DNA from: a virus
Virus genome (UHGV): UHGV-1998854
Strand: one strand, 5' to 3'
DNA length: 13,478 nucleotides
Shown here: positions 12,014 to 13,351 of the stretch, piece after piece
How positions within the stretch are numbered: the first letter of the stretch is position 1
Layout of the letters: each line of letters begins with the position of its first letter
The notes under the pieces: generated by a model
The model's input: the letters and a program-made list of their open reading frames with translations, nothing else
What the model was told of the DNA's origin: nothing
Database searches by the model: none
Program-made: the position numbers and the translations under genes

Positions 12014-12556
12014 GTGGCTAAAAAAGGCGACTTTAAGCCTACCCAGAAAGAGGTTGACCAAGCTATTACTCGCTTGAAAAAAGTAACTTTTAGCGGAGTT
12101 TCGTGGACCGGAAGTGAGGGACGAACCCCAATCTGGTTTAAATTGGATCTCAAAGCTTTTGATGAAATTGGCAACCCAATCACAGGCATAAGATTTATGC
12201 TTCACTGGCGTTCTCCTATCGTTGAAGGGGTGGATATAGTGAAGCTTTCATTTGTGATGTTTCTTCATGACAGGCGCATTTACGCGCTTGACCCGTACCC
12301 TGCGCATAACAAGTCACACCGTAATAAATCTATAGTGCACCATCCAGATTTTGTTGAGGTGGCTCGAGGTCCTCACTATCACATGTACTTCGAATCAGCT
12401 GGGGAAGAAATTGCACTCAAGCTTGAAACGAACATCAAGCCAGATGATTTTTTTGGCTACTGGAATTATTTTTGCGAGGCGCTTAATATCATATATGAAG
12501 GCAGCCCACCTTTACCGAATCAAGATAAATCAGGTCAGCTATCATGGGAAATGTAA
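12014..12556 (+). CDS. Hypothetical protein A (180 aa, soluble, His-rich segment HHPDF...GPHYHMYF); first gene of a two-gene operon in the rexA/rexB slot
   Basis: GTG start at 12014 is the first start codon after an in-frame stop; a weak GGTGA lies upstream. The 3' end overlaps the next ORF (ATGGGAAATGTAA). No recognisable motif; no hydrophobic helices. Confidence 0.55.
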   Translation: MAKKGDFKPTQKEVDQAITRLKKVTFSGVSWTGSEGRTPIWFKLDLKAFDEIGNPITGIRFMLHWRSPIVEGVDIVKLSFVMFLHDRRIYALDPYPAHNKSHRNKSIVHHPDFVEVARGPHYHMYFESAGEEIALKLETNIKPDDFFGYWNYFCEALNIIYEGSPPLPNQDKSGQLSWEM

Positions 12557-13320
12557 CGTGTTCAACAGTCATATCTAAGCTCGGGTTTGAATGCCACCCA
12601 ATGAGCGACACGTTGCTGCGCGTTATTAGTCCCTTCACATACTACGATGATTGTGAGCAGATAAGCGTATTCGTTCAAGAGATGAGTGGTCAGTATAGGG
12701 TTACAGACTACTGCGATACATTGATGAATATTGAATCACGCGGCATCCACCTGACTAAAAAGAAAATTGATCTGATCAGGTCATCACTCGCTTCGCAAGG
12801 AATTTCATTAAATGACTCTGGAGAGATATCTGCGTGGGCAGATGAGTCGTCCGTTGGACAGGTAACTGCAAATGTTATTCGTGGTGGGATTCTTGCATCC
12901 GCCCAAACTGCTGATTGGTATGCTGAGGTCAAAGACGATAAGTTCGAAAAATGTGTAATCAGTTACTTAAAATCAGCAGGGCTTGGGAAGCGACTAGCCT
13001 TAAAGGAAAAAGTGAAAGGTATTAGTGGGCATAACATTACTGTTCCGTTAACGCTAAGGAATGAGTCTCGACTAATACCACCAAAACGCGGGTTTACGGT
13101 AAGCCTTGCCAGCAGTAAAGGATGGAATACTGCCCACTCAACAGTTGGGAAGATTGTTGACTTAAGTCAGGTCGTTCCTGACATAAACAATAGATTTGTA
13201 ATAGTTGACAGCGATGGGTTAACACCTGAGCTACAGCAACTATCACTACTATTTAATGATACCGCACGAGTGTTGCCATTCCATACCAGAGACTCTTGGA
13301 TTGACTCTCTGGTAGCCTAG
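12544..13320 (+). CDS. Hypothetical protein B (258 aa, soluble); second gene of the cI-linked two-gene operon
   Basis: Start overlaps the stop of gene A, implying translational coupling; an alternative start is M20 at 12601. An intrinsic terminator follows immediately. No recognisable motif. Confidence 0.6.
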   Translation: MGNVTCSTVISKLGFECHPMSDTLLRVISPFTYYDDCEQISVFVQEMSGQYRVTDYCDTLMNIESRGIHLTKKKIDLIRSSLASQGISLNDSGEISAWADESSVGQVTANVIRGGILASAQTADWYAEVKDDKFEKCVISYLKSAGLGKRLALKEKVKGISGHNITVPLTLRNESRLIPPKRGFTVSLASSKGWNTAHSTVGKIVDLSQVVPDINNRFVIVDSDGLTPELQQLSLLFNDTARVLPFHTRDSWIDSLVA

Positions 13321-13351
13321 AAAAACCCGGCCTCTGCGCCGGGTTTTCTTT
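13321..13351 (+). terminator. Intrinsic terminator ending the cI / gene A / gene B transcription unit (possibly bidirectional)
   Basis: aaaaa-CCCGGC-ctctgc-GCCGGG-ttttcttt: a 6-bp GC stem and 6-nt loop, flanked by an A run upstream and a T run downstream, starting 1 nt after the gene B stop. Confidence 0.75.

What the first reader, a model, noticed from the sequence alone, without database searches (positions are those of the whole stretch)
12014..13351. Two-gene operon of unknown function immediately downstream of cI, in the slot where lambda carries rexA-rexB
Lambda carries the RexAB exclusion system at this position, and other lambdoid phages carry different exclusion genes there (for example the Stk kinase of phage 933W). 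Here two overlapping, translationally coupled genes (180 aa and 258 aa) follow cI and end at a strong intrinsic terminator. They are expressed in the lysogen if co-transcribed from pRM, and an internal promoter is not excluded. Neither resembles RexA (279 aa) or RexB (a 144-aa polytopic membrane protein): both are predicted soluble with no motif I recognise. This is a strong candidate for an uncharacterised prophage-encoded anti-phage or superinfection-exclusion system.
Basis: partly seen in the sequence, partly recalled or inferred. Interest (0 to 1): 0.75.

Follow-up and report, generated by a model that had tools for sequence, protein, structure and literature searches.

The report
Uncharacterised two-gene cargo after prophage repressor
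Two real, overlapping genes of unknown function sit where phage lambda keeps its RexAB exclusion genes; they are most likely an untested anti-phage defence module, distantly related to a predicted candidate system (PADLOC PDC-M24), and their mechanism is unknown.

Summary
Gene A (12014-12556, 180 aa) and gene B (12544-13320, 258 aa) overlap by 13 nt. They follow cI on the same strand, with no + strand terminator between, and end at a strong hairpin plus T-tract (13326-13351). Both are under purifying selection and predicted soluble.

That is not quite right. B carries Pfam DUF1828, and its model shows a secretion-chaperone-like N-domain plus a restriction-endonuclease-fold C-domain that lacks the canonical acidic catalytic residues. 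A is a borderline DUF6978 relative with an invariant GPHxH motif and no structural match.

Both proteins weakly hit PADLOC candidate PDC-M24, a cassette predicted from its embedding in restriction/BREX systems and never tested. The A-B pair sits just downstream of an S24/HTH repressor in 19 independent prophage loci across Gamma-, Beta- and Epsilonproteobacteria. It also occurs without a repressor next to type I R-M, PIN and SIR2 genes.

Sister E. coli prophages with the same cI/cro carry other cargo in this slot, including the Stk kinase (PD-T4-6-like).

The defence reading is therefore well supported by context but unproven. This is a divergent member of a catalogued, uncharacterised candidate. 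Interest is moderate.

The parts
11209..11916 (+). cI-type repressor (HTH_3 + Peptidase_S24). It is the upstream gene of the presumed pRM operon and is context, not part of the cassette.
   Evidence: Pfam hits Peptidase_S24 3.5e-16 and HTH_3 1.2e-5. RefSeq calls it 'S24 family peptidase'.
11967..12013 (+). Cassette-specific leader. It starts at the left recombination boundary and contains GGTGA 8-13 nt before the GTG start of gene A.
   Evidence: Sister prophages HR5-1 and O157 TX265-1 align with the window up to about 11966 and then diverge. The sequence was read. No + strand terminator lies between cI and A.
12014..12556 (+). Gene A, 180 aa, soluble and mostly beta. It is a divergent DUF6978 / PDC-M24A-like protein. 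H121 and H123 (GPHxH) are invariant; K22, R88, H102 and F153 are nearly invariant. The C-terminal tail is disordered but conserved (PLPNQDxSGQLSWEM).
12544..13320 (+). Gene B, 258 aa, soluble. The N-domain (about 1-121) is DUF1828 with a type III secretion chaperone / YbjN-like fold. The C-domain (about 132-258) has a restriction-endonuclease (PD-(D/E)xK) fold and is DUF1829-like. Family-wide invariants are C17, D55, D58, G67, G159, S161 and D206; K203 is near-invariant.
12544..12556 (+). The 13-nt overlap between the end of A and the start of B, implying translational coupling.
   Evidence: In the 22 related loci printed, A-family ORFs end at or over B's ATG wherever their ends were determined.
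13326..13351 (+). Intrinsic terminator closing the slot: stem 13326-13331 / 13338-13343 and T-tract 13344-13351. It is phage backbone, equivalent to lambda's terminator of the immunity operon (my comparison).
   Evidence: The fold gives -21.4 kcal/mol, z = -3.3. It is conserved in HR5-1, where the slot holds different cargo.

Best explanation
The two genes are a mobile, lysogen-expressed accessory cassette that most likely protects the lysogen against other phages by superinfection exclusion or abortive infection. It is a divergent prophage-borne branch of the uncharacterised DUF6978 + DUF1828/DUF1829 cassette that PADLOC lists as candidate PDC-M24.

Proposed working (inferred, not shown): both proteins are made from the cI (pRM) transcript, in a coupled ratio set by the overlapping stop and start codons, and act as a complex. 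B would be the sensor or scaffold. Its chaperone-like DUF1828 domain would bind a peptide, either a phage protein or the conserved disordered tail of A. Its nuclease-fold domain, which in this clade has lost the canonical acidic residues, would bind nucleic acid or a ligand rather than cut DNA in the classical way. A, with its invariant His-x-His on a strand plus a nearly invariant His102, would carry a metal site and be the catalytic or executing partner.

Shown here: the genes, their coupling, their position, the folds, the conserved residues and the genomic associations.

Inferred: expression from pRM, the A-B complex, the division of labour, and the anti-phage phenotype itself.
For: 1. Position. 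The pair sits just downstream of an S24/HTH repressor, on the same strand, in 19 independent loci:
- E. coli;
- Pantoea, Providencia (two species), Yersinia, Xenorhabdus, Izhakiella and Thorsellia;
- a Pseudomonas phage;
- a Helicobacter prophage;
- Eoetvoesiella, Cupriavidus and metagenomic prophages.
This is the slot of lambda rexAB and of BstA, described as a hotspot transcribed with the repressor (PMC8585504).

2. Cassette exchange. With the same Cro and about 96-97% identical cI DNA, the slot holds either this pair, a 299-aa ORF, or DUF3024 + Stk kinase. The last two hit PADLOC PDC-S43 and the PD-T4-6/mad6 kinase models. The flanks are conserved up to sharp boundaries.

3. Independence from the repressor. 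Four distant pairs have no repressor nearby. One lies directly after hsdR-hsdM-hsdS. One lies beside PIN_12, a resolvase and HsdR. One lies near a SIR2_2 gene. One lies in an ordinary chromosomal context.

4. Independent prediction. Both proteins hit PDC-M24A/B. Relatives of B match PDC-M24B, some nearly full length, at 1e-10 to 4.5e-13. PDC-M24 is a two-family cassette (153 in the count column of the cassette table) nominated by 'guilt-by-embedding' in BREX/DISARM/type I R-M systems.

6. Partnership. An A-family ORF lies directly upstream of B in every locus where the upstream stretch was read or annotated. The A and B subtypes co-vary.

7. A diverges faster than B. On contigs of identical length (6328 and 1421 nt), presumably the same contigs, A is 60-62% identical to the window protein and B 74-75%. 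Only 22 cluster representatives of A were found among 1.84 billion proteins.
Against: - No experiment exists. I found no paper testing DUF1828, DUF6978 or PDC-M24, and PDC systems are explicitly unvalidated candidates.
- The PADLOC hits of the window proteins are weak and partial (A 1.5e-3 over 35% of the profile; B 6e-7 over the N-terminal 40%). I judge that PADLOC itself would probably not call the system.
- No validated defence family matches.
- B lacks the canonical nuclease residues and A has no recognisable fold, so no effector activity can be named.
- Genes in this slot can serve the phage's own switch; RexA biases the lambda switch (PMC11077077 abstract).
- Co-transcription from pRM was not measured.
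Confidence: 0.55

Rival explanations
1. The pair serves the prophage's own lysis-lysogeny decision, for example by modulating the S24 repressor or its cleavage as RexA modulates the lambda switch, rather than excluding other phages.
For: The pair is tightly linked to S24/HTH repressors in 19 of the 24 distinct loci examined, across pairs only 20-25% identical. There is a precedent: RexA acts on the lambda bistable switch (PMC11077077 abstract).
Against: The same cI/cro works with entirely different cargo in the slot. Four pairs occur with no repressor nearby, one directly after a type I R-M operon. PDC-M24 cassettes were found embedded in R-M/BREX/DISARM systems. The linkage is also what any gene needing lysogen expression would show, as with BstA.
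Confidence: 0.12
2. The pair is a toxin-antitoxin or addiction module that stabilises the prophage or island. One protein would be toxic (B through its nuclease fold, or A through its His site) and the other would neutralise it. Any defence effect would be secondary.
For: There are two overlapping, translationally coupled genes in every locus. B has a nuclease-fold domain. The pair lies on mobile elements. The partners co-vary.
Against: No Pfam, NCBIfam or PADLOC toxin or antitoxin family matches. No DNA-binding antitoxin-type domain was seen. The proteins are larger than typical type II pairs. The canonical nuclease residues are absent from B in this clade. This reading is not exclusive of defence, since many such modules defend.
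Confidence: 0.15
3. The pair is a lysogenic-conversion cargo unrelated to phage conflict, such as a host-physiology or virulence factor. Its presence in the slot would simply reflect that the slot is a permissive, well-expressed site.
For: Prophage slots also carry non-defence cargo (my general knowledge). B's N-domain resembles secretion chaperones. The function is untested.
Against: The pair occurs in hosts with very different lifestyles, including Helicobacter, Burkholderia, Cupriavidus and environmental metagenomes. Both proteins are predicted cytoplasmic. The pair associates with R-M, PIN and SIR2 genes. No match was found in 72,556 plasmid records.
Confidence: 0.08

Closest known systems
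PADLOC phage-defence candidate PDC-M24 (cassette CAS_00098, FAM_00129>>FAM_00065; Payne et al., bioRxiv 10.1101/2024.01.29.577857)
   Same: It is also a two-gene cassette, with a small protein followed by a protein of about 250 aa on the same strand. B and its relatives match PDC-M24B; the ev207 allele matches nearly full length at 7e-10 and others reach 4.5e-13. A matches PDC-M24A through the motif-bearing C-terminal third. One distant pair lies directly after a type I R-M operon.
   Different: The window proteins hit only weakly and partially. Most loci examined here are prophage rex slots rather than R-M/BREX-embedded sites. B in this clade has lost the two acidic residues that the main clade keeps. 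PDC-M24 itself has no tested phenotype or mechanism.
Phage lambda RexA-RexB
   Same: It has the same position and orientation: after cI and before the immunity-operon terminator. It is also two genes, presumably expressed in the lysogen.
   Different: No sequence or family match was found. Neither protein is a membrane protein, whereas RexB is polytopic. No RexA match appeared in the fold searches.
BstA (Salmonella prophage BTP1 and relatives; PMC8585504)
   Same: It is a prophage defence gene whose homologues across Gram-negative bacteria sit downstream of the repressor, with a minority found outside prophages. The A-B pair shows the same distribution pattern.
   Different: BstA is a single protein with a cognate anti-BstA DNA element. 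There was no PADLOC BstA hit here, and no self-immunity element has been identified.
Stk Ser/Thr kinase cassette of 933W/H-19B-type prophages (PD-T4-6-like)
   Same: It is an allelic occupant of exactly this slot, behind the same Cro and about 96% identical cI DNA, in O157:H7 TX 265-1.
   Different: The proteins are unrelated: a kinase plus DUF3024/PDC-S43.
Sensor-plus-PD-(D/E)xK effectors such as Can2/Card1, NucC and restriction enzymes of the NgoMIV/Cfr10I/PspGI group
   Different: B has no CARF or SAVED domain. The canonical D...(D/E)xK residues are replaced in this clade (P168 and K181). What is conserved instead is G159-x-S161, K203-x-x-D206 and D222.

Membership tests
Lambda RexAB exclusion system | Located immediately downstream of cI, co-oriented, and closed by the immunity-operon terminator | tested here: met
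Lambda RexAB exclusion system | A RexA-like protein (sequence family or fold) | tested here: not met
Lambda RexAB exclusion system | A RexB-like polytopic membrane protein | tested here: not met
   The maximum 19-residue Kyte-Doolittle hydropathy is 1.22 (A) and 0.79 (B), so no membrane helix is expected.
PADLOC candidate PDC-M24 | Component B homologous to PDC-M24B | tested here: met
   The window B hits at 6.3e-7 and 7e-7, covering only about 100 N-terminal residues. The ev207 allele and distant relatives hit at 7e-10 to 4.5e-13, some nearly full length.
PADLOC candidate PDC-M24 | Component A homologous to PDC-M24A | tested here: inconclusive
   The window A hits at 1.5e-3 over profile positions 85-135 of 146. 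The ev207 A hits at 4.8e-4. The four short-type A proteins tested gave no hit at E<=0.01.
PADLOC candidate PDC-M24 | Gene order A then B, adjacent, on the same strand | tested here: met
   The cassette is written FAM_00129>>FAM_00065.
PADLOC candidate PDC-M24 | Found embedded in or next to BREX, DISARM or type I R-M systems (the basis of its nomination) | tested here: not met
   The window copy lies in a prophage immunity region. Only distant relatives lie beside type I R-M genes.
PADLOC candidate PDC-M24 | Demonstrated anti-phage activity | not testable with these tools
   No experimental report was found. PDCs are described as candidates.
Pfam DUF1828 (PF08861) | Score above the curated gathering cut-off | tested here: met
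   40.9 bits against a cut-off of 22, residues 30-112 of B.
Pfam DUF1829 (PF08862) | C-terminal domain matching the profile | tested here: inconclusive
   The window B has no hit at E<=1. Homologous B proteins of Burkholderia and Helicobacter phages hit at 8e-5 and 1.4e-6 in the aligned region.
Pfam DUF6978 (PF22398) | Score above the curated gathering cut-off | tested here: not met
   21.1 bits against a cut-off of 29.6, covering only the C-terminal third. Seven of 28 family members hit at E<=0.01, the best at 2e-6.
PD-(D/E)xK nuclease superfamily | The alpha-beta-beta-beta-alpha-beta core fold | tested here: met
PD-(D/E)xK nuclease superfamily | Catalytic acidic residue at the start of strand 2 and a (D/E)xK in strand 3 | tested here: not met
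   Most family members have D at these two columns (29 and 40 of 48). The window clade has P168 and K181 there.
Type II toxin-antitoxin modules | A recognisable toxin or antitoxin domain; toxicity of one partner neutralised by the other | tested here: inconclusive
   No such family was found in Pfam, NCBIfam or PADLOC. Toxicity cannot be tested with these tools.

The most novel reading that the evidence does not exclude
The A-B pair is a mechanistically new two-component abortive-infection or exclusion system, and would be the first functional handle on the DUF6978 + DUF1828/DUF1829 (PDC-M24) family. A would be a novel-fold His-x-His metalloprotein acting as effector. It would be controlled by a partner that combines a secretion-chaperone-like sensor domain with a remodelled, non-canonical restriction-endonuclease fold. 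Temperate phages of Gamma-, Beta- and Epsilonproteobacteria would have kept the pair in the repressor operon.
Probability: 0.35. Interest if true: 0.7.

Novelty: new member of a known kind. Interest (0 to 1): 0.5.

Why it matters
If the pair protects lysogens, it would turn a purely computational candidate (PDC-M24) into a tractable system. One or other allele is present in roughly 300 of 5,426 complete E. coli genomes (61 with the window allele, 239-241 with the ev207-type allele). Carriers of the ev207-type allele include Nissle 1917 and the type strain ATCC 11775.

It would also add another case, after RexAB and BstA, of defence genes riding the repressor transcript. Neither protein has a characterised relative, so its mechanism would probably be new.

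In practical terms it could affect phage-therapy host range and Stx-phage spread in E. coli. If it proves not to be defensive, the strict linkage to S24 repressors would instead point to an unrecognised accessory of the lysogeny switch.

Tried and rejected
- Sequence searches of both proteins, and of family profiles, against all PDB chains found nothing meaningful.
- The AlphaFold-database fold library was not available.
- NCBIfam gave no hit for either protein.
- PADLOC gave no hit to any validated system.
- Literature searches for DUF1828, DUF6978, PDC-M24 and the two RefSeq protein accessions found no functional study.
- The Nissle 1917 paper on lambdoid-phage resistance cloned only a repressor-gene amplicon listed as 410 bp, not the pair.
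- GiPD474, a Gifsy immunity-region defence gene, is a single ATPase-domain protein and is unrelated.
- A plasmid search for B found nothing.
- An internal promoter is neither supported nor excluded: 5 promoter-like sites in the region against 4.7 expected by chance.
- I considered His-Me-finger, HIT and cupin readings of the GPHxH motif. I dropped them because the flanking motif residues are not conserved across the family and no such fold was recovered.
- I rejected 'active canonical restriction-type nuclease' for B, because both acidic positions are substituted in this clade.

Full report
**What the window is.** The window is the early region of an E. coli lambdoid prophage, read in reverse. 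It runs Q (1877-2500, -), the nin genes, P, O, cII (10500-10796, -), cro (ending at 10903, -) and then cI on the + strand (11209-11916). The last 1.5 kb is 100% identical to many E. coli chromosomes. In strain D1, RefSeq annotates the order as cro / S24-family repressor / 'hypothetical protein' / 'DUF1828 domain-containing protein' / a 111-aa ORF / ral. The two genes therefore occupy the interval between cI and the N-ral region, which is the lambda rexAB position.

**Checking the observation.**
- Gene A runs 12014-12556 (GTG start, 180 aa). Gene B runs 12544-13320 (ATG start, 258 aa). Both are on the cI strand and overlap by 13 nt.
- The cI-A spacer has no + strand terminator-like site.
- After B comes CCCGGC-CTCTGC-GCCGGG followed by TTTTCTTT (13326-13351). 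A 56-nt stretch around it folds at -21.4 kcal/mol, better than all 200 shuffles.
- Both ORFs are real genes. Against the Pantoea latae copy, non-synonymous differences are 0.11-0.135 per site while synonymous sites are saturated at about 0.78. All 14 aligned homologues of A begin with M-A, mostly MAKK.
- Neither protein has a hydrophobic stretch compatible with a membrane helix.

**The slot and its boundaries.** Two sister prophages have the identical Cro protein and cI DNA about 96-97% identical.
- E. coli HR5-1 carries a single 299-aa ORF in the slot.
- O157:H7 TX 265-1 carries DUF3024, a 153-aa ORF, a Ser/Thr kinase and a small ORF. The kinase hits PADLOC PD-T4-6 and mad6 models at 1e-37 to 7e-50, and DUF3024 hits PDC-S43 at 4e-41.
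- Alignments show shared sequence up to window position about 11966 and again from about 13326.
- The terminator is therefore backbone, and the exchangeable cassette is about 11967-13325.
- Of 441 E. coli genomes matching the 1.5-kb query (mostly short matches at its ends), 61 carry the whole pair.
- A second allele, in which B is 51% identical (phage ev207 type), is present in 241 genomes, including Nissle 1917 and ATCC 11775; in Nissle 1917 it again follows the repressor.

**What the proteins are: gene B.**
- B has a significant DUF1828 match at residues 30-112 and belongs to phrog_1960.
- Its AlphaFold model has mean pLDDT 82.6 and shows two domains.
- From the order of secondary-structure elements, I assign the chaperone-like fold to the DUF1828 N-domain and the nuclease fold to the C-domain. 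Distant homologues match DUF1829 in that C-terminal region.
- Across 48 family members only C17, D55, D58, G67, G159, S161 and D206 are invariant; K203 and D222/223 are nearly so.
- Most members have aspartates in strands 2 and 3 of the nuclease fold (29 and 40 of 48 sequences). The enterobacterial/Pseudomonas clade, including the window protein, has P168 and K181 at those positions.
- The fold is therefore nuclease-like, but the classical catalytic signature is not met.

**What the proteins are: gene A.**
- A belongs to phrog_2017. It matches DUF6978 only below the curated cut-off and only over its C-terminal third. Seven of 28 family members match, the best at 2e-6.
- An exhaustive profile search found only 22 cluster representatives among 1.84 billion proteins.
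- The family signature is R88...(D/E)...H102-x-N...G-P-H121-x-H123...F153. H121 and H123 are the only invariant residues.
- Two histidines alternating on a strand, plus a third conserved histidine, suggest a metal site. This is inference only.
- The last 15 or so residues are predicted disordered yet nearly invariant among enterobacterial copies. Part of that conservation may come from B's ribosome-binding site and start codon lying inside them.

**The pair as a unit.**
- In every related locus where the stretch upstream of B was read or annotated, an A-family ORF lies directly upstream and ends at or over B's start codon.
- This includes loci where gene callers missed it, such as the Pseudomonas phage phPA-G and three metagenomic loci.
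- The subtypes co-vary. 'Long' A proteins have an insert between HxN and GPHxH and a C-terminal GQ tail. They pair with B proteins that lack the two aspartates and carry an 8-residue insert. 'Short' A proteins pair with B proteins that keep the aspartates.
- A diverges faster than B. On contigs of identical length (presumably the same contigs), A is 60-62% identical to the window protein and B 74-75%.

**Genomic association.**
- Nineteen independent loci place the pair just downstream of an S24/HTH repressor facing a Cro-like gene. They span E. coli, seven other Enterobacterales species (Providencia twice), Pseudomonas, Helicobacter, Cupriavidus, Eoetvoesiella and metagenomes.
- Sometimes other small genes come first, such as DUF3024 or TM2 + VasI.
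- In Burkholderia phage phi644-2 the pair lies in the immunity region, but I could not identify the repressor.
- Four more distant pairs have no repressor. One follows hsdR-hsdM-hsdS on the same strand. One lies beside PIN_12, a resolvase and HsdR. One lies near SIR2_2. One is in an ordinary chromosomal setting.

**Comparison with what is known.**
- PADLOC's database contains models PDC-M24A and PDC-M24B. The window proteins hit both, weakly (1.5e-3 and 6e-7). Relatives of B hit PDC-M24B, some nearly full length, at 1e-10 to 4.5e-13.
- PDC-M24 is cassette CAS_00098 (FAM_00129>>FAM_00065, with 153 in the count column). It is one of 145 candidates nominated because such cassettes are embedded in BREX, DISARM or type I R-M systems. 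None of these candidates is reported as tested.
- The slot itself is a recognised hotspot. BstA homologues likewise sit downstream of prophage repressors, and the cI-N interval is described as a site of mosaic diversity (PMC8585504). A Gifsy immunity-region defence gene and a Pseudomonas RexAB-type system are further examples.
- Nothing links the pair to RexA or RexB.

**Interpretation.**
- The best-supported reading is a lysogen-expressed anti-phage cassette. I put the confidence at about 0.55.
- The supporting evidence is entirely contextual: the slot, allelic exchange with known defence genes, association with R-M, PIN and SIR2 genes elsewhere, an independent guilt-by-embedding nomination, and a sensor-plus-nuclease-fold architecture.
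- The proposed division of labour (B as sensor or scaffold, A as a metal-dependent effector) is inference and could easily be the reverse.
- Three rivals remain. The pair could be an accessory of the phage's own switch, favoured by the repressor linkage but disfavoured by cassette exchange and the repressor-free copies. It could be an addiction or toxin-antitoxin module, which is not exclusive of defence. It could be unrelated conversion cargo.

**Verdict.** The genes and their anatomy are as described. The pair is a divergent prophage-borne member of a catalogued yet uncharacterised candidate family, sitting in a slot already known for defence cargo. It is a good target for a simple plaque-assay experiment, but it is not a categorical novelty.

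Noticed in passing
window 13421-13478: The window departs from the otherwise identical E. coli D1 sequence here. It continues into the end of an IS3-family insertion sequence, which matches thousands of IS3-type transposase loci. The IS is inserted about 70 bp past the slot terminator, between the immunity operon and the N region.
   Followed up: partly
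window 4871-6643 (+) and 4496-4554: A 590-aa ORF lies on the strand opposite to the surrounding nin genes. It has no Pfam match and is annotated 'hypothetical' in RefSeq; the 2.4-kb stretch holding it is at least 80% covered in 251 E. coli genomes. A perfect (AAATAG) x 9.8 hexamer repeat lies just upstream. This may be another accessory cargo.
   Followed up: partly
window 3736-4383 (-): An ORF with HNH_3 and AP2 domains (homing-endonuclease type) is inserted among the nin genes. E. coli D1 lacks it at this place.
   Followed up: no
L025 4269-4610; L007 4052-4393 (also L008, L011): A 113-aa DUF3024 protein is the first gene after the repressor in several sister prophages. It hits PADLOC candidate PDC-S43 at 4e-41 and 6e-37. 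It sits ahead of either the Stk kinase or the A-B pair, so the slot can hold stacked cassettes.
   Followed up: partly
L024 3338-4237: E. coli HR5-1 has the same cI/cro, but its slot holds a single 299-aa hypothetical protein (WP_000076840.1). It has no PADLOC hit and no significant Pfam hit (only DUF1206 at E 0.007, below its cut-off). This is another uncharacterised candidate in the same slot.
   Followed up: partly
L030 3501-4807 (E. coli Nissle 1917); L002 3450-4756 (phage ev207): A second allele of the pair, in which B is 51% identical, is found in 241 of 5,426 complete E. coli genomes. Carriers include Nissle 1917 (in a decayed prophage next to icd) and the type strain ATCC 11775. These are convenient strains for experiments.
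   Followed up: partly
L021 4906-5424; L022 7010-7525: Uracil-DNA-glycosylase-family genes lie directly beside two of the repressor-free A-B pairs. The two loci may be related, so this may be a single event.
   Followed up: no
L003 3420-4004 (Pseudomonas phage VB_PaD_phPA-G): The A-family gene is not annotated in the GenBank record. An ORF with the GPHxH-type motif (HPHLH) and a start overlapping B is present there. Gene callers also missed the A-family ORF in L016, L020 and L022.
   Followed up: yes
window 7326-7853 (-): The window carries a Dam-family adenine methyltransferase (Pfam Dam, 8e-65) where E. coli D1 has an MT-A70-family methyltransferase. This shows mosaicism in the nin region.
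   Followed up: no
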